A DNA stretch of 64,000 nucleotides from a virus: IMG/VR virus record IMGVR_UViG_3300028840_002431, positions 172,240 through 236,239 of that record. One strand, 5' to 3'. The position numbers and the translations under genes are program-made. Position 1 is the stretch's first letter; the number at the start of each line of letters is the position of its first letter. Below are positions 11,909-53,562 of the stretch, piece by piece. The notes under the pieces were generated by a model that ran no database searches, had not been told where the DNA came from, and was given only the letters and a program-made list of their open reading frames with translations.

Positions 11909-12436
11909 ATGCTCAAGATCACAATCAGCCCAGACAACCTGGAGTTTTCCTACGATCCCGAGTGTCAAAAGCAGGTCCTGGTCCTGAGGGGGCTACCCGG
12001 TTCCGGGAAGAGTTTCATAGCCGACTCGTTCAGGGGCAGAGCGATCCGCAAAAACGACGACCAAACGGTCGTCTGCTCGACCGATGACTTTTTCATGGTC
12101 GATGGTCTCTACCGGTTCGACCCGACTCAGCTAACTGAGGCCCACCACACGTGTTTCCGGAAGTTCACACAGGCGGTAGACAGGGACGTGGAGATCGTCG
12201 TCGTTGACAACACGAACATCTACGCGGCCGAGTTCGCGCCGTACGTCACCTACGCGGCGTCTCGTGAATACGAGGTCAAGATCCTGACCGTCTGGTGCGG
12301 CCTGGAAACGGCCTTCGAGCGTCAGAGCCACAACGTTCCGATCGAGGTCCTGATCAAGATGTACGCGGCACTACTCAAGAACGATGTTGTGCCTCCTTAC
12401 TTCCAGCACGAGGTCTTGTACAACGGGTGGCGTTGA
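11909..12436 (+). CDS. pnk: polynucleotide 5'-hydroxyl kinase (T4 Pnk kinase-domain-like, P-loop)
   Basis: Walker A GLPGSGKS, DNTN Walker B-like, and overall collinearity with the T4 polynucleotide kinase N-terminal domain; class-1 motif TTAGATT 26 nt upstream. Confidence 0.65.
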   Translation: MLKITISPDNLEFSYDPECQKQVLVLRGLPGSGKSFIADSFRGRAIRKNDDQTVVCSTDDFFMVDGLYRFDPTQLTEAHHTCFRKFTQAVDRDVEIVVVDNTNIYAAEFAPYVTYAASREYEVKILTVWCGLETAFERQSHNVPIEVLIKMYAALLKNDVVPPYFQHEVLYNGWR

Positions 12437-12606
12437 CAGCCGCAGTTGACCCATGTATCGTCCGGCTTTCCGCAACCGGTCGGGGGCGCACTCATCAAGG
12501 CCCTGACGAGAGTCTTGGTGCCCGCCATCTTAATCGGAGCGACCCGACAAGACCCGGCCGGTTGCATTAAATCTTAGGAACGGGGGCGGCCGATGGTAGG
12601 TATGGT

Positions 12607-13104
12607 ATGCCCACAGCTAAAGAAGTAGCTTTCGAGATTCATCGGGACGCGATGTACGGCGACCAGCCGTACTCAGTCCACCTGGATGAGGTTGTTACCG
12701 TGATGTCCCGTTACGGTGTCCGCGAGCACGACCTCCTGGACGCCGGTTATCTGCACGACAGCATCGAGGACACGCCGACCACGAAAGAGGACCTGGAGCG
12801 CCTCGTGGGGCCAACAGTGGCCCGGATCGTGGACGCTGTGACCGACGGCAAAGGTAAGAACCGGGAAGAGCGTAAGGAGCGTCCCTATCGTCTTATCCCC
12901 AAGGTCTATGGTGCCCTGACTGTGAAGCTGGCCGACCGCGTCGCGAACGTGGAAGCCACGATCAAGAACGGCAAAACCGGACTGTTCGAGATGTACAAGA
13001 AGGAACAACCCGAGTTCCGGCGTCGGCTTCGTGCCGCTCCTGGAAAAATAGAGTCGTCTCCGGAACGGCGGATGTGGAACCGGCTGGCCGAGCTTCTAGG
13101 CTAA
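12607..13104 (+). CDS. small alarmone hydrolase (Rel/SpoT-type HD domain, Mesh1/SAH-like)
   Basis: QPYSVHLDEV ... AGYLHDSIEDT matches the Rel/SpoT hydrolase signatures (PY..H and LHDxIED). Confidence 0.65.
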   Translation: MPTAKEVAFEIHRDAMYGDQPYSVHLDEVVTVMSRYGVREHDLLDAGYLHDSIEDTPTTKEDLERLVGPTVARIVDAVTDGKGKNREERKERPYRLIPKVYGALTVKLADRVANVEATIKNGKTGLFEMYKKEQPEFRRRLRAAPGKIESSPERRMWNRLAELLG

Positions 13105-13307
13105 CGTCTGACCGGGATTACGTCCTTACCCCGGAACTTGATTCGATACCCTCTGTCGAGTTTGACAGCTTCTTCGATCTCTTCGGGTTCAACGTCAAGA
13201 AGCTCTGCTAATTCCGCAGCGTCGGCGGGGGAGCGTTTCACGGCACGGACGATGTCCTGGACCAGGATGTCAATATCACGTAAGCGGCGGATTGCGTCTT
13301 TGTCCAT
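13101..13307 (-). CDS. hypothetical protein
   Basis: ORF track 68 aa. Confidence 0.35.
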   Translation of the reverse strand: MDKDAIRRLRDIDILVQDIVRAVKRSPADAAELAELLDVEPEEIEEAVKLDRGYRIKFRGKDVIPVRR

Positions 13308-13319
13308 ACCTACGTCGCG

Positions 13320-13361
13320 TATAAAAACAAGCGGGATGCCTTGTGGTTGGCATCCCGCTTG
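13320..13361 (-). terminator. rho-independent terminator (hairpin + T-run on the - strand)
   Basis: Perfect 12-bp stem CAAGCGGGATGC ... GCATCCCGCTTG followed on the - strand by TTTTTAT. Confidence 0.5.
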
Positions 13362-13429
13362 AGAAGTGGCCTCGTAACCCAGCGCCCTTTCGAGGCCAAC
13401 CTAAGCAAGGTGGGCCTGGGTCTCGTGTC

Positions 13430-13861
13430 TTACAGTTCTCCGTACTTGGCAGCGTCACGGGCAGCGTCGGCCCGCATGATGGCCCGGTCCTGGTCCTCGC
13501 ACTCTTCGGAGCAGTAGTCCTCATCCCAACAGTGAAGGTCCTCATCCAGCTTGAAAGCGTGGCCGCACATGGCGCACACGGTCAGCTTCTCGACGCCGTC
13601 CGTCTCACCACCGAGCCAGGACTTGGTCCCGTTCACGGGCGGGTAGAAGGGGCCTTCTTCGGCCTCGACCTCTTTGCCCCCGAACACGCGCCGGGTGGCC
13701 TCGATTACGTAACGCTCGCAGCCCTCAATACGCTCGAAGCCAGTCACAATACCTTCGACGTAACAGGCACGCTCGCCGGACTCGTCCTTGCCGTGGAAGG
13801 GGAAGTCGTGGGAGCGGACCGTGTCACCAACTTTGATTTCGTTATTTCCGTTGTTGTTCAT
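13430..13861 (-). CDS. hypothetical Cys-rich protein
   Basis: ORF track; class-1 promoter motif and GGGGTAGACC leader upstream. Confidence 0.45.
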   Translation of the reverse strand: MNNNGNNEIKVGDTVRSHDFPFHGKDESGERACYVEGIVTGFERIEGCERYVIEATRRVFGGKEVEAEEGPFYPPVNGTKSWLGGETDGVEKLTVCAMCGHAFKLDEDLHCWDEDYCSEECEDQDRAIMRADAARDAAKYGEL

Positions 13862-13904
13862 ATACGGTCTACCCCCATGGTCAGGTGAATCTAAAGTTTA
13901 AATT
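13862..13904 (-). promoter_or_regulatory. class-1 phage promoter-like element (AATTTAAACTTTAGATT + 26-nt leader GGGGGTAGACCGTAT)
   Basis: Conserved motif; fixed 26-nt spacing to the ATG. Confidence 0.45.
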
Positions 13905-52265: not shown

Positions 52266-52556
52266 CAGGGTATTTGACAAATCGTACGGGCCGGGCCATT
52301 TTTAATTTGAATTGACGACCTTGGGGTGTATAAGGGTCGTACTAACGGTTGGAGAAATGCCCAGGACAATCAACATACCAGCACCGATGCTCCCCGGCAC
52401 CCTTATCTGACCTGTCCATATACGGCGGGTCACAACGGACCCGCCTCGAAAAACGCTTGTTTTCCTGGTGGGTTATGGAGGAAAACGAGATGTTTAACTG
52501 CTTCATTGAACCAGAAGACCCCGGTCATCCGTGCGTGCGAGGCACGGGCCACGTAT

Positions 52557-52633
52557 CGGGGTAAGGGCTTGATGGTAAGCCGCTTGGTTCGGGACCAAGA
52601 GTTCTGCGGGTTCGACTCCCGCTACCCCGACCA
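52557..52633 (+). tRNA. tRNA-Pro (CGG)
   Basis: Canonical cloverleaf: acceptor CGGGGTA/TACCCCG, anticodon stem CTTGG/CCAAG with loop TTCGGGA, T-arm GCGGG-TTCGACT-CCCGC, CCA encoded. Confidence 0.7.
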
Positions 52634-52640
52634 AAGAAAC

Positions 52641-52717
52641 CGGGGAGTAGCTCAGTCTGGCGGAGCGTCTGCTTTGGGAGCAGAAAGTCGTCGGTTCGAA
52701 TCCGGCCTCCCCGACCA
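52641..52717 (+). tRNA. tRNA-Pro (UGG)
   Basis: Acceptor CGGGGAG/CTCCCCG, anticodon stem TCTGC/GCAGA with loop TTTGGGA, T-arm GTCGG-TTCGAAT-CCGGC, CCA encoded. Confidence 0.7.
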
Positions 52718-52726
52718 GGAGGACAA

Positions 52727-52855
52727 ATGGCTAAGAAAGCGTGCATGTCCAACGTTCGTGATCCAGAGAACCGGAGCAAAAAGGGATGCGTGTGCGGCGG
52801 CCACAGCCGGGCCGCACGGAAGAAGAAAAAGAAGTGGACCAGAAAGAAAGCGTGA
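52727..52855 (+). CDS. small, very basic Cys-containing protein (42 aa)
   Basis: Strong SD GGAGG 7 nt upstream; MAKKACMSNVRDPENRSKKGCVCGGHSRAARKKKKKWTRKKA; sits between tRNA genes. Confidence 0.3.
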   Translation: MAKKACMSNVRDPENRSKKGCVCGGHSRAARKKKKKWTRKKA

Positions 52856-52929
52856 TGCGGTGCAAGCGGGGATGCTGACTGGGTTTCATAAGCCCGGTTT
52901 ATCGAGTTCGACTCTCGGGGCCGCAACCA
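52856..52929 (+). tRNA. tRNA-Met/Ile2 (CAU)
   Basis: Anticodon loop TTCATAA; T-arm TCGAG-TTCGACT-CTCGG; acceptor TGCGGTG/GGCCGCA + A + CCA. Confidence 0.5.
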
Positions 52930-52935
52930 AGGAAA

Positions 52936-53562
52936 ATGAAATCATACCCAACAATACCGTACGAGGTGCTCAAGGGGCTTCCAGTCTACATCTACGATAA
53001 GCTGGACGGTTCCAACATCCGTGCGGAATGGAGTAAGAAAAGAGGCTTCTACAAGTTCGGCTCACGGCGTCGGCTGCTTTCGGACGACTCGTTCATTATC
53101 AAAGAGGCAGAAGGGCTGATCCTGGCCCAACGAGAGGCGCTCGAAAGATACGTCGTAGACCAGTTTCGGTGTGACAGGTGTATATGCTTCTTTGAGTTCT
53201 GGGGTCCAAGCTCATTTGCCGGTCTACATAAAGAGGACGAGACGCACGAGACGGCCCTGTTGGACATCGAGATATATAAAAGAGGCTTCATCGACCAGAA
53301 GGCGTACCGGAAACTTCAAGAGAAGCTGGATGTCCCGACGCCCCGGTTTCTAACACACGAGAAGATGACAGCGGAGATAGAGGAACAAGCCAGGGCCGGT
53401 GAACTCGGAAGCTTTGAGGGGATCGTCTGCAAGTCAATAATGACCGACAAATACAAGAAGCCCCTCCGATTCAAGGTCAAGTCCCGGCAGTGGATCGAGA
53501 AAGTCAAAGCCATTCACGCCGGGAACCAAAAGGTTCTGAGAGAACTGTTAGAAGGTCTGTGA
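52936..53562 (+). CDS. RNA-ligase-like nucleotidyltransferase (Rnl2/DraRnl-like)
   Basis: Motif I IYDKLDGSN, motif IV EGIVCK, motif V LRFKVK; 208 aa. Confidence 0.55.
   Translation: MKSYPTIPYEVLKGLPVYIYDKLDGSNIRAEWSKKRGFYKFGSRRRLLSDDSFIIKEAEGLILAQREALERYVVDQFRCDRCICFFEFWGPSSFAGLHKEDETHETALLDIEIYKRGFIDQKAYRKLQEKLDVPTPRFLTHEKMTAEIEEQARAGELGSFEGIVCKSIMTDKYKKPLRFKVKSRQWIEKVKAIHAGNQKVLRELLEGL

What the first reader, a model, noticed from the sequence alone, without database searches (positions are those of the whole stretch)
11909..53562. Dispersed RNA-repair and translation-maintenance toolkit (Pnk kinase, two ligases, PTH2, SpoU/TrmH methyltransferase, RRM protein) together with the tRNA genes
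Seen in sequence, with established family knowledge for each call: a T4 Pnk-like kinase (11909..12436), an Rnl-like RNA ligase (52936..53562, next to the tRNA-Pro/Met genes), a second minimal KxNGxR ligase (45266..45811), a eukaryote/archaea-type PTH2 peptidyl-tRNA hydrolase directly after the tRNA cluster (38435..38869), a SpoU/TrmH 2'-O-methyltransferase (30315..30782) and a glycine-rich RRM protein (34670..35098). Inference: Pnk plus RNA ligase is the classic phage counter-measure to host anticodon nucleases (established for T4). PTH2 and the methyltransferase suggest broader protection of tRNA and the translation apparatus. PTH2 in a phage is itself unusual. No 2',3'-phosphatase domain was recognised, so the healing enzyme may be unconventional.
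Basis: partly seen in the sequence, partly recalled or inferred. Interest (0 to 1): 0.6.

Follow-up and report, generated by a model that had tools for sequence, protein, structure and literature searches.

The report
Huge-phage RNA repair and tRNA kit
A piece of a roughly 416-kb phage genome carries, scattered among its tRNA genes, enzymes predicted to mend or protect tRNA; giant phages are already known to do this, but several parts here are unusual versions, notably a very small RNA ligase that sits inside tRNA gene arrays.

Summary
All six ORFs exist at the stated coordinates and match the named families, with caveats. The kinase belongs to the polynucleotide-kinase clade but is N4BP2-like, not T4-like. 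The RNA ligase is a bare 208-aa nucleotidyltransferase domain. The "second ligase" is DNA-ligase-type. The PTH2 belongs to a divergent subfamily lacking the canonical Lys and Asp.

New evidence: the ligase belongs to a family of more than 1,200 unannotated proteins found in huge phages. In 46 of 64 dereplicated loci it lies within 5 kb of tRNA genes, and 276 of 277 of those tRNAs are on its strand. Recurring neighbours are 2H phosphoesterase, Rnl1, PTH2, SpoU and HD genes. That supports a tRNA repair or maintenance role.

The specific "Pnk plus Rnl" pairing is not supported. In a 398-kb relative the kinase ortholog sits beside the DNA-type mini ligase, which suggests DNA end repair.

The general concept is already published for jumbo phages (Iyer et al. 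2021), PTH2 included. Verdict: a real feature and a new variant of a known kind, of moderate interest. Side observation: the tRNA array upstream of the PTH2-like gene holds tRNA-like genes with no anticodon loop.

The parts
8012..8338 (+). cREC_REC domain protein (108 aa). It is a candidate 2',3'-cyclic-phosphate processing enzyme.
   Evidence: Pfam PF20274, E 1.9e-12, 48.1 bits against a cut-off of 27. The predicted role and the operon links to RNA ligases come from PMC7824862.
11909..12436 (+). P-loop kinase of the polynucleotide-kinase clade, N4BP2-like, 175 aa, with no phosphatase domain.
   Evidence: AAA_33 at 2.7e-11. phrog_2071 at 1e-21 and phrog_505 'polynucleotide kinase' at 5e-10. 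Homologs are named NEDD4-binding protein 2(-like). Conserved GxGKS, Asp59, DNTN and R..H.VP motifs align with the T4 Pnk kinase domain.
12607..13104 (+). Mesh1/small-alarmone-hydrolase-type HD phosphohydrolase, 165 aa. It lies 170 nt after the kinase on the same strand.
   Evidence: Precomputed PF13328 HD_4. PDB matches: Drosophila Mesh1 at 3.6e-12, Rel hydrolase domains and human MESH1, with the PY..H, LHD..EDT and KLADR..N motifs conserved. phrog_990 at 4.8e-31.
30222..30782 (+). SpoU/SPOUT 2'-O-methyltransferase. The nearest characterised relatives are TrmL (position 34) and TrmJ.
   Evidence: Pfam at 2.7e-16. NCBIfam TrmL at 1.2e-6 over the full length, below the cut-off. The best PDB matches are TrmL at 2e-4.
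34670..35098 (-). RRM RNA-binding protein with a Gly/Arg-rich tail.
   Evidence: RRM_1 at 2.5e-25. NCBIfam NF058537 Rbp_regulator, 103 bits against a cut-off of 100. Translation.
37372..38373 (+). Array of eight tRNA-like units. At least three of them (37522-37600, 37605-37686, 37750-37848) have anticodon arms closed by a tetraloop.
   Evidence: ARAGORN. Rfam alignments with inserts. Sequence. Folds. Unit U1 is conserved in relative L109.
38435..38869 (+). PTH2-superfamily protein of a divergent subfamily. It overlaps the next ORF (DUF7873, 38842-39576).
   Evidence: Pfam PTH2 at 1.5e-9. phrog_1866 'unknown function' at 1.5e-20. The subfamily has 1,438 cluster representatives. The canonical Lys and Asp are absent.
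45266..45811 (-). Minimal (181 aa) ATP-dependent ligase adenylation domain of the DNA-ligase/capping type, with no OB domain. It is probably not part of the RNA kit.
   Evidence: Motifs I (KWNGKR; N or D in relatives), III, IIIa, IV and V. LigD-domain match at 5.9e-9. Foldseek's top matches are DNA ligases and capping enzymes. It lies next to the kinase ortholog in L105, and near PolX and endoV-like genes in L107.
52557..52929 (+). tRNA-Pro(cgg), tRNA-Pro(tgg), and an ARAGORN-only tRNA-Met call immediately upstream of the RNA ligase.
   Evidence: ARAGORN. Rfam scores 41 and 64.4 bits for the two Pro tRNAs and does not confirm 52856-52929.
52936..53562 (+). Stand-alone RNA-ligase-type nucleotidyltransferase domain (208 aa).
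   Evidence: Invariant motifs I (KxDGxNxRxE), III, IIIa, IV and V across 35 homologs. AF2 model pLDDT 89. Foldseek's top matches are NgrRnl, T4 Rnl1, MthRnl, T4 Rnl2, REL1 and Trl1. The family is embedded in tRNA arrays.
53810..53887 (+). tRNA-Met(cat).
   Evidence: ARAGORN. Rfam 64 bits.
57281..57355 (+). tRNA-Arg(cct).
   Evidence: ARAGORN. Rfam 55.1 bits.

Best explanation
The window is part of a ~416-kb huge-phage genome. It carries a loose, non-operonic set of tRNA/RNA repair and translation-maintenance genes of the kind already described for jumbo phages.

The core is a minimal ATP-dependent RNA-ligase-type enzyme encoded inside a tRNA gene cluster. I infer that it reseals phage or host tRNAs broken by host ribonucleases, joining 5'-phosphate to 3'-OH ends.

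The end-healing activities would come from separate small proteins rather than from a T4-type fused Pnkp:
- The N4BP2/PNK-clade kinase would phosphorylate the 5'-OH.
- The Mesh1/SAH-type HD hydrolase next to it and/or the cREC protein would clear 3'-phosphate or 2',3'-cyclic phosphate.
- The same HD enzyme could also strip the pyrophosphate that toxSAS defence toxins place on the tRNA CCA end, or degrade alarmones.

The TrmL-like SpoU methylase would 2'-O-methylate tRNA, possibly in the anticodon loop, which would block transesterifying nucleases. The PTH2-like protein would release a peptidyl or aminoacyl moiety from damaged or tRNA-like RNAs. The RRM protein would act as an RNA chaperone.

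Shown here: family and fold assignments, motif conservation, the ligase-tRNA array linkage, and recurrent co-location of these families in relatives. Inferred: every enzymatic activity, every substrate, and any cooperation between the parts.
For: - Domain assignments.
- The ligase has all covalent nucleotidyltransferase motifs and an RNA-ligase fold.
- Across 64 dereplicated huge-phage loci there are 4.29 tRNAs per 10 kb around the ligase, against 0.22 in 12 control loci. Fisher p is 0.003 for at least one tRNA and 0.0002 for at least two. 276 of 277 tRNAs are on the ligase strand, and in 10 loci a tRNA lies within 30 nt of the ORF.
- Recurrent neighbours are 2H-SAK-like (16/64), His_Phos_1 (14), EF-Ts (12), Rnl1-type ligase (11) and canonical PTH2 (11).
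- In individual relatives, an HD_4 gene overlaps the ligase start (L032), a SpoU gene abuts the ligase (L089/L090), PTH2-like genes lie within 4 kb (L021, L062), and an RRM gene lies within 5 kb (L076).
- A kinase relative is followed directly by a CCA-adding enzyme with an HD domain. Another has a PTH2-like gene 2.8 kb downstream.
- SAH enzymes restore aminoacylation of CCA-pyrophosphorylated tRNA, and the authors liken this to the T4 Pnk 3'-phosphatase (bioRxiv 10.1101/2021.04.30.441581). A phage SAH neutralises toxSAS toxins (PMC9712102).
- The jumbo-phage RNA-repair repertoire is published (PMC7824862).
Against: - The genes span 45 kb (8.0-53.6 kb) on both strands, with no operon structure.
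- Kinase and HD are separated by 170 nt holding a sigma-70-like promoter. The adjacency is absent from 8 IMG/VR kinase relatives and from L105.
- The kinase ortholog is next to the DNA-type mini ligase in L105.
- None of the ligase family's commonest neighbours (2H, His_Phos, Rnl1, EF-Ts) is present in this window.
- The PTH2-like protein lacks the canonical catalytic Lys and Asp.
- The ligase has no substrate-binding accessory domain, and its Pfam score is below the cut-off.
- No activity has been measured.
Confidence: 0.5

Rival explanations
1. There is no integrated toolkit. The genes are independent modules that happen to share an accessory region of a huge genome.
- The kinase and the DNA-ligase-type mini ligase form a DNA end-healing and sealing pair for nick or base-excision repair.
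- The HD enzyme is an alarmone hydrolase, acting on (p)ppGpp or (p)ppApp, that blunts the host stringent response or toxSAS signalling.
- SpoU, RRM and PTH2-like each serve separate roles.
- Only the Rnl-like ligase is tRNA-linked.
For: - Kinase ortholog (E 3e-48) lies 1.4 kb upstream of the mini ligase, on the same strand, in the 398-kb relative L105. Orthologs of window genes 47645-47923 and DnaJ 47160-47495 lie between them.
- The mini ligase sits near PolX and a T4 endoV-like Pyr_excise gene in L107/L108.
- Its fold matches DNA ligases and the LigD domain.
- HD-alarmone phosphodiesterases are listed as a counter-nucleotide defence in jumbo phages (PMC7824862).
- The genes are dispersed and on mixed strands.
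Against: - The HD_4, SpoU, PTH2-like and RRM families recur within 5 kb of the tRNA-array ligase in several unrelated huge phages.
- A kinase relative abuts a CCA-adding enzyme.
- The kinase-mini-ligase linkage rests on one relative only.
- The mini ligase lacks the OB domain that DNA ligases need for nick sealing.
Confidence: 0.3
2. The tRNA-linked genes service phage tRNA-like RNAs rather than repairing nuclease damage. The array at 37.4-38.4 kb would encode anticodon-less tRNA mimics that act as decoys or sponges for host enzymes recognising the acceptor end. The PTH2-like protein, the HD hydrolase and the ligase would process, deacylate or recycle them.
For: - Three units keep the acceptor, D and T arms and an encoded CC or CCA, but their anticodon arm is a closed UNCG-type hairpin.
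- A 113-nt tRNA-like unit is about 90% conserved in a relative whose PTH2-like protein is 79% identical. The array-leader-PTH2-like order is also kept there.
- The PTH2-like subfamily has its own conserved residues.
- toxSAS enzymes select tRNAs by the acceptor stem (abstract of PMC11245113).
Against: - There is no expression or covariation evidence; only two sequences were available.
- The units could be decaying tRNA pseudogenes.
- No such aberrant units were seen in the tRNA arrays of the 64 ligase loci. The long tRNAs there keep normal anticodon loops.
- No homologous array was found in IMG/VR.
Confidence: 0.1

Closest known systems
Phage T4 Pnkp + Rnl1 tRNA repair (countering the PrrC anticodon nuclease)
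   Same: A phage encodes a PNK-clade 5'-kinase and an ATP-dependent RNA-ligase-type enzyme alongside its own tRNA genes. The kinase shares the P-loop, the catalytic Asp and the DNTN/SDTN motif with the T4 Pnk kinase domain.
   Different: - The kinase has no fused HAD 3'-phosphatase, and its closest relatives are N4BP2-like.
- The ligase is a bare 208-aa adenylyltransferase domain without Rnl1's C-terminal tRNA-specificity domain.
- The genes are 40 kb apart.
- The kinase may partner a DNA-type ligase instead.
Jumbo-phage RNA-repair and translation-support repertoire (Iyer, Anantharaman, Krishnan, Burroughs, Aravind 2021, PMC7824862)
   Same: The same catalogue appears here: tRNAs with RNA ligases, polynucleotide kinases, 2H/cRec/HD phosphoesterases, PTH2 and an HD-alarmone phosphodiesterase.
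   Different: - That paper names Rnl1, Rnl2 and RtcB ligases. It is not established whether the ~205-aa stand-alone family seen here is included. XacN1 ORF354 is annotated 'hypothetical protein'.
- I did not find the tRNA-array embedding of this family described in the passages of that paper returned by my term searches.
- The PTH2 here is a non-canonical subfamily.
Bacterial HD-Pnk end-healing enzyme with adjacent ligase (Runella slithyformis, Deinococcus radiodurans; Munir and Shuman 2017, cited in PMC6097658)
   Same: An HD phosphoesterase is combined with a P-loop polynucleotide kinase as an alternative to the HAD-type Pnkp.
   Different: - Here the two are separate ORFs in the order kinase then HD, with a 170-nt spacer containing a promoter-like site.
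- The HD is of the RelA/SpoT (Mesh1/SAH) type.
- No ligase is adjacent in this window.
Small alarmone hydrolases (Mesh1, ATfaRel, phage SSU5 PaSpo)
   Same: A single-domain RSH hydrolase with conserved metal and catalytic motifs. A phage-encoded SAH is known to neutralise toxSAS, and other SAHs (human MESH1, ATfaRel) regenerate pyrophosphorylated tRNA.
   Different: The substrate is unknown here. Its position beside a PNK-clade kinase, and the adjacency of a homolog to the tRNA-array ligase in L032, were not mentioned in the papers I read.
ATP-dependent RNA ligase families Rnl1-Rnl5
   Same: Motifs I, III, IIIa, IV and V are present, and the fold matches members of all five families.
   Different: There is no accessory domain of any family. 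No PDB chain is detectable by sequence profile. TM-scores are only about 0.6 to each family, so it is equidistant from them.

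Membership tests
T4-type polynucleotide kinase-phosphatase (Pnkp) | P-loop 5'-kinase domain with Walker A GxxGxGK(S/T) and a catalytic Asp | tested here: met
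AAA_33 at 2.7e-11. phrog_505 at 5e-10. The direct PDB match to T4 Pnk 1ly1 is only E 0.67.
T4-type polynucleotide kinase-phosphatase (Pnkp) | Fused C-terminal HAD (DxDxT) 3'-phosphatase domain | tested here: not met
   The protein is 175 aa, and no domain beyond the kinase is found.
T4-type polynucleotide kinase-phosphatase (Pnkp) | 5'-OH RNA/DNA kinase activity | not testable with these tools
   Needs an enzyme assay.
N4BP2/NONU-1-type PNK-clade kinase | Closest homologs and signature motifs S(T/A)DDFF, DNTN and RNxHxVP | tested here: met
   Homologs are named NEDD4-binding protein 2(-like 1). The motifs are conserved in alignment A5. Clade assignment comes from bioRxiv 10.1101/674358.
HD-Pnk (Runella/Deinococcus) | Single polypeptide with an N-terminal HD and a C-terminal Pnk domain | tested here: not met
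   The two are separate ORFs in the order kinase then HD, 170 nt apart, with a promoter-like site between them.
HD-Pnk (Runella/Deinococcus) | ORF adjacent to or overlapping a polynucleotide ligase | tested here: not met
   No ligase lies within 30 kb in the window. A homologous HD does overlap the Rnl-like ligase start in L032.
Small alarmone hydrolase (RSH hydrolase, Mesh1-like) | Stand-alone HD_4 domain with the H...HD..ED...D(R/K)..N catalytic motifs | tested here: met
   Precomputed PF13328. Mesh1 at 3.6e-12, with PY..H, LHD..EDT and KLADR..N aligned.
Small alarmone hydrolase (RSH hydrolase, Mesh1-like) | Hydrolysis of a 3'-pyrophosphate on nucleotides or on the tRNA CCA end | not testable with these tools
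   Needs an enzyme assay.
ATP-dependent RNA ligase (covalent nucleotidyltransferase) | Motifs I (KxDG), III, IIIa, IV and V | tested here: met
   K22, D24, G25, N27, R29, E31, E87, D110, E161, G162, K166, K180 and K182 are invariant in 35 sequences.
ATP-dependent RNA ligase (covalent nucleotidyltransferase) | Pfam PF09414 gathering score | tested here: not met
   25.3 bits against 27. Many relatives do carry a precomputed PF09414 hit.
ATP-dependent RNA ligase (covalent nucleotidyltransferase) | Fold closer to RNA ligases than to DNA ligases | tested here: met
   The top 31 Foldseek matches are RNA ligases of the Rnl1, Rnl2, Rnl3, Rnl5, REL1 and Trl1 types, apart from two chains of one Aquifex aeolicus entry deposited as a 'putative ATP-dependent DNA ligase' (3qwu). 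Bona fide DNA ligases start at rank 32.
Rnl1 / Rnl2 / Rnl3 / Rnl5 specifically | Family-specific accessory domain: Rnl1 C-domain, Rnl2 C-domain, Rnl3 N-terminal and dimerisation domains, or Rnl5 N-terminal OB | tested here: not met
   The 208-aa protein is a single domain in the AF2 model. The family is uniformly about 200-206 aa.
ATP-dependent DNA ligase (mini ligase 45266-45811) | Motif I KxDGxR plus motifs III, IIIa, IV and V | tested here: inconclusive
   Motif I is KWNGKR here and KWDGKR in several relatives. DGELL, FVWD, LEGIVWK and FKYRF are present.
ATP-dependent DNA ligase (mini ligase 45266-45811) | C-terminal OB domain with motif VI | tested here: not met
   The protein is 181 aa and the model is the adenylation domain only.
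ATP-dependent DNA ligase (mini ligase 45266-45811) | Fold of a DNA-ligase adenylation domain | tested here: met
   Top matches are Lig3, archaeal ligases, Lig1, LigD and LigIV, and also mRNA capping enzymes, with TMq 0.6-0.74.
PTH2 peptidyl-tRNA hydrolase | Pfam PF01981 above the gathering score | tested here: met
   38.5 bits against 23.
PTH2 peptidyl-tRNA hydrolase | NCBIfam equivalog cut-off | tested here: not met
   33.8 bits against 126, and 30.8 against 82.
PTH2 peptidyl-tRNA hydrolase | Canonical active-site Lys (GK motif) and Asp (DAG motif). The residue roles are from my memory of the Sulfolobus Pth2 mutagenesis work. | tested here: not met
   'SKGK' aligns with 'APGL' and 'RDAG' with 'REPD' against P. 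horikoshii Pth2. The whole subfamily lacks them, whereas canonical phage PTH2 sequences in the same alignment keep them.
SpoU/TrmH SPOUT methyltransferase | Pfam PF00588 above the gathering score | tested here: met
   60.4 bits against 29.7.
TrmL (tRNA position-34 2'-O-methyltransferase) | NCBIfam equivalog cut-off | tested here: not met
   28.5 bits against 190.6. TrmL is nevertheless the best PDB relative at 2e-4.
RRM RNA-binding protein | RRM_1 domain, and the bacterial Rbp model | tested here: met
   88.5 bits. NF058537 scores 103 against 100.
tRNA | Cloverleaf with a 7-nt anticodon loop | tested here: inconclusive
   This is met for 52641, 53810, 57281 and probably 37372. It is not met for 37522, 37605 and 37750, which have closed tetraloop arms. 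38098 and 38286 have 9-nt loops.

The most novel reading that the evidence does not exclude
The ~205-aa stand-alone enzyme is a new, sixth type of RNA ligase dedicated to the tRNA arrays of huge phages. In this phage it would work within an acceptor-end-centred counter-defence. Anticodon-less tRNA-like decoys from the 37.4-38.4 kb array would soak up host toxins that attack the tRNA acceptor end. The Mesh1-type HD enzyme paired with the PNK-clade kinase would act as a split, non-HAD 'Pnkp' that also removes CCA pyrophosphate. The non-canonical PTH2-like protein would recycle the decoys.
Probability: 0.1. Interest if true: 0.8.

Novelty: new variant of a known kind. Interest (0 to 1): 0.5.

Why it matters
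Phage repair of tRNA cut by host nucleases is a textbook arms race, but it has been worked out only for T4. Three points make this locus useful.

1. It points to a very large, unannotated family of minimal RNA-ligase-like enzymes: more than 1,200 clusters, also present in Xanthomonas phage XacN1, the Lak megaphages and the Al-Shayeb huge phages. Its conserved position inside tRNA arrays gives a concrete, testable substrate hypothesis. XacN1 is cultivable, so the hypothesis can be tested genetically.

2. A PNK-clade kinase sits next to a Mesh1/SAH hydrolase. This suggests a link between classical end-healing and the newer toxSAS (CapRel) tRNA-pyrophosphorylation defence.

3. The analysis shows that domain-level calls ("PTH2", "second ligase", "T4 Pnk-like") over-state what is known. 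The PTH2-like subfamily lacks the canonical catalytic residues, and the second ligase looks DNA-directed.

Tried and rejected
- **Identifying the phage.** Megablast of 20 kb and tblastn of the 510-aa ORF against INPHARED found nothing.
- **Ligase profile against PDB sequences.** This gave only a spurious MJ0489 match, so classification rests on fold.
- **tRNA splicing as the reason for kinase plus ligase.** I considered this because several tRNAs are long. I rejected it for two reasons. The long tRNAs in relatives keep 7-nt anticodon loops and carry an extra variable-arm hairpin capped with GAAA. The window's aberrant units show closed hairpins rather than bulge-helix-bulge motifs.
- **HD-Pnk membership.** Rejected: the ORFs are separate and the HD is of the RelA/SpoT type.
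- **Conservation of the kinase-HD adjacency.** It was not found in 8 IMG/VR relatives or in L105.
- **The 345-codon ORF over the tRNA array (37392-38429).** Its translation is a repeat of tRNA-motif peptides, so I treat it as spurious.
- **Pattern scan of IMG/VR for the tRNA-like units.** It returned only four ordinary 73-nt tRNAs.
- **Names for PTH2-like subfamily members.** Almost none carry a name.
- **PADLOC.** It gave only a P-loop match to a CARF-PDDEXK-AAA model for the kinase and an SNase match.
- **Window homologs of the ligase family's common neighbours** (2H, His_Phos_1, Rnl1, EF-Ts, Cpn10). None were found.

Full report
**Where the window comes from.** Exact-sequence look-ups place the window's proteins on metagenome contigs of 416,275 and 416,380 bp (ENA ERZ27256798 and ERZ27256783) and on an 83-kb Logan contig. 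The window is 53-58% G+C and packed with short co-directional ORFs. Most have no Pfam match. It has no close relative among deposited phage genomes. However, its marker families occur on IMG/VR viral contigs of 200-620 kb, in Xanthomonas phage XacN1, in the Lak megaphages and in the Al-Shayeb huge phages. I therefore treat it as part of a huge phage. No structural gene lies inside the window, so this rests on relatives.

**Observation.**
- AAA_33 kinase: 44.4 bits.
- RNA_ligase PF09414: 25.3 bits, just under the cut-off of 27.
- DNA_ligase_A_M: motif I stretch only.
- PTH2: 38.5 bits.
- SpoU_methylase: 60.4 bits.
- RRM_1: 88.5 bits, with a Gly/Arg-rich tail.

ARAGORN calls ten tRNAs. At its gathering score on the whole window Rfam confirms seven of them and adds one at 37750-37848; a local scan of 37300-38450 also scores the 37605 tRNA-His at 41 bits, above the cut-off of 29.

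**Kinase.** The best matches are phrog_2071 'ATPase' (1e-21) and phrog_505 'polynucleotide kinase' (5e-10). PSTK and KTI12 models match weakly. T4 Pnk itself scores only E 0.67. The 138 homologs are mostly stand-alone proteins of about 143 aa. Several are named NEDD4-binding protein 2(-like), and none is fused to a phosphatase. The N4BP2/NONU-1 kinase domain is placed in the polynucleotide-kinase clade, whose members phosphorylate RNA and DNA ends (bioRxiv 10.1101/674358). So "Pnk-like kinase without a phosphatase" holds, while "T4-like" is too specific.

**Missed healing candidates.** Two genes were overlooked.
- A 165-aa HD protein follows the kinase after 170 nt on the same strand (12607-13104). 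It is of the RelA/SpoT hydrolase type. It matches Drosophila Mesh1 at 3.6e-12, along with Rel hydrolase domains, human MESH1 and bacterial small alarmone hydrolases. The PY..H, LHD..EDT and KLADR..N motifs are intact.
- A cREC_REC domain ORF lies at 8012-8338 (1.9e-12). Iyer et al. proposed this family to process 2',3'-cyclic phosphates and found it linked to RNA ligases in operons (PMC7824862).

Kurata et al. showed that SAH enzymes remove the pyrophosphate that toxSAS toxins add to the tRNA CCA end. They explicitly liken this to the T4 Pnk 3'-phosphatase. A phage SAH (PaSpo of SSU5) neutralises toxSAS toxins.

The kinase-HD pairing is suggestive but weak. A sigma-70-like promoter sits in the spacer. 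The adjacency is not seen in eight IMG/VR kinase relatives or in L105. One relative instead has a CCA-adding enzyme with an HD domain directly after the kinase, and another has a PTH2-like gene 2.8 kb downstream.

**RNA ligase.** The 208-aa protein has more than 1,272 homologs. Nearly all are 200-206 aa and unannotated, and many sit on contigs of 200-480 kb. Thirty-five aligned sequences keep motif I (KxDGxNxRxE), III (FFEFWG), IIIa, IV (EGVVCK) and V (FKxK) invariant. A sequence profile finds no real PDB relative. The AF2 model is confident, with pLDDT 89.4. Foldseek ranks RNA ligases of every family first: NgrRnl, T4 Rnl1, MthRnl, T4 Rnl2, REL1 and Trl1, at E of about 1e-7 and TM of about 0.6. 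Two chains of one Aquifex entry deposited as a putative DNA ligase also rank among them; bona fide DNA ligases come lower. It is therefore an RNA-ligase-type adenylyltransferase domain with none of the accessory domains that define Rnl1-5.

**The ligase lives in tRNA arrays.** IMG/VR holds 116 relatives, and I fetched 80 loci.
- After dereplication to 64 groups, 46 have a tRNA within 5 kb, 36 have at least two and 26 have at least five.
- 276 of 277 tRNAs are on the ligase strand.
- The median distance to the nearest tRNA is 608 nt, and in 10 groups a tRNA lies within 30 nt.
- tRNA density is 4.29 per 10 kb, against 0.22 in 12 control huge-phage loci. Fisher p is 0.003 for at least one tRNA and 0.0002 for at least two.

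Clustering the neighbouring ORFs gives recurrent partners: a 2H-SAK-like phosphoesterase (16/64), HNH (15), His_Phos_1 (14), Cpn10 (13), EF-Ts (12), an Rnl1-type ligase (11) and canonical PTH2 (11, E 2e-30). Homologs of the window's own genes also turn up there:
- an HD_4 gene overlapping the ligase start (L032);
- HD_4 and SpoU genes immediately upstream (L089/L090);
- SpoU (L064/L065);
- PTH2-like (L021/L022, L062);
- RRM (L076).

None of the commonest partners (2H, His_Phos_1, Rnl1, EF-Ts) is present in this window.

**Second ligase.** Only 17 homologs exist, of 171-221 aa. Motif I is KW(N/D)GKR, so the asparagine is not a family trait. Motifs III, IIIa, IV and V are present and there is no OB domain. 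The nearest NCBIfam model is the LigD ligase domain. The AF2 model has pLDDT 84. It matches DNA-ligase adenylation domains and mRNA capping enzymes, not RNA ligases.

In a 398-kb relative (L105) the ortholog of the window kinase (E 3e-48) lies 1.4 kb upstream of this ligase on the same strand. Orthologs of window genes 47645-47923 and DnaJ 47160-47495 lie between them. In another relative the ligase sits near PolX, a T4 endoV-like glycosylase and an Rnl2-like ligase. The kinase may therefore belong with this ligase in DNA end repair.

**PTH2-like protein.** It passes the Pfam threshold, but it belongs to a separate subfamily: phrog_1866 'unknown function' at 1.5e-20, with 1,438 cluster representatives. 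Against Pyrococcus Pth2, the 'SKGK' and 'RDAG' segments align with 'APGL' and 'REPD'. In alignment A3 the whole subfamily lacks these residues, while canonical phage PTH2 sequences keep them. The subfamily has its own conserved R23, D25, G29, Q34, H37, W53, E88-P89-D90 and T96. PTH2 in jumbo phages is already reported, so its presence is not unusual. The non-canonical active site is.

**SpoU and RRM.** The SpoU protein is closest to TrmL and TrmJ, the tRNA anticodon-loop 2'-O-methylases, but far below equivalog cut-offs. The RRM protein just passes NCBI's bacterial Rbp_regulator model. Their roles are inferred only.

**tRNA-like array.** Rfam alignments and folds show that units 37522-37600, 37605-37686 and 37750-37848 keep acceptor, D and T arms and an encoded CC or CCA. 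Their anticodon arm, however, is a closed hairpin with a UNCG-type tetraloop. The third unit also carries a 28-nt UUCG hairpin in the D loop. Two larger tRNA-like elements (37853-37965 and 37968-38095) escape the tRNA model. The first is about 90% conserved in a relative whose PTH2-like protein is 79% identical. The order array, leader, PTH2-like gene is also kept there, and the ~65-nt leader is almost invariant. These could be decaying pseudogenes or functional tRNA mimics. I could not decide.

**Verdict.** The T4-style Pnk plus Rnl pairing is not shown, the second ligase and perhaps the kinase look DNA-directed, and the PTH2 call needs qualification. The most useful new result is the tRNA-array-embedded minimal RNA-ligase family.

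Noticed in passing
window 37522-37848: Three tRNA-like genes keep acceptor, D and T arms and an encoded CC or CCA, but their anticodon arm is a closed hairpin with a UNCG-type tetraloop, so there is no anticodon loop. The third also has a 28-nt UUCG-capped hairpin inserted in the D loop.
   Followed up: partly
window 37853-38095; L109 160-272: Two larger tRNA-like elements (113 and 128 nt) with big inserts are missed by the Rfam tRNA model. The first is about 90% conserved in a relative (L109), with pair-preserving changes in the T stem and acceptor stem.
   Followed up: partly
window 38374-38434; L109 425-486: The ~65-nt leader between the tRNA-like array and the PTH2-like start codon is almost identical in the relative, although the flanking tRNA-like units have diverged. 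It contains two short hairpins and may be a processing or regulatory element.
   Followed up: no
window 37392-38429: A 345-codon frame stays open through the whole tRNA-like array on the tRNA strand and was called as a 337-aa gene in public assemblies. The translation is a repeat of tRNA-motif peptides (GSSVGRA, GGSNPSPR), so it is probably spurious. An open frame this long is unlikely by chance (my rough estimate is about 0.007 expected per 64 kb).
   Followed up: partly
L025 2939-3019, L037 4202-4283, L034 7558-7648, L048 5620-5705 and 8370-8460, L051 4268-4358, and others: In related huge phages, tRNAs for Gly, Asn, Lys, Cys, Thr, Val and Arg are 81-91 nt long. They carry an extra variable-arm hairpin, in most cases capped by a GAAA-type tetraloop, although these are not class II tRNAs.
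   Followed up: partly
L021 6534-6605, L023 4542-4615, L037 5645-5736, L070 10164-10239: Suppressor-type tRNAs (anticodons CTA and TTA) sit in the tRNA arrays next to the ligase family. This hints at stop-codon recoding in some of these phages.
   Followed up: no
window 37449-37515 and 37687-37745: The spacers after two tRNA-like units share a repeated element, CCGGGAGTT...GGCCGGTT...AACCGGCC, which can form a long hairpin.
   Followed up: no
window 33371-34386: A staphylococcal-nuclease-like gene (phrog_452 endonuclease, 3e-30) abuts an FkbM-family methyltransferase gene on the same strand. This may be a nuclease-methylase pair.
   Followed up: no
window 16457-32629: This region holds domains unusual for a phage:
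- Myb/SANT-like protein (29218-30099, minus strand)
- sulfotransferase (26380-27294)
- SPFH/Band_7 (31379-32629)
- papain-like peptidase C1 (23020-23787)
- SprT-like protease (16457-17170, minus strand)

DUF4419 lies further on at 54409-55482.
   Followed up: no
window about 14400 onward, compared with L004 12500-20528: Two assemblies of the same phage share the kinase-HD region exactly, but downstream of about window 14400 they carry different gene blocks. The two are the 416-kb contig L004 and the 40.7-kb contig L003, whose gene order matches the window. This is strain-level cassette replacement.
   Followed up: no
window 38842-39576: A DUF7873 ORF overlaps the 3' end of the PTH2-like gene by 28 nt. 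The same pairing is seen in the other assemblies, so the two genes are probably co-transcribed.
   Followed up: no
window 53767-53979: A 70-aa ORF called in public assemblies lies over the high-scoring tRNA-Met at 53810-53884, so the ORF call is probably spurious.
   Followed up: no
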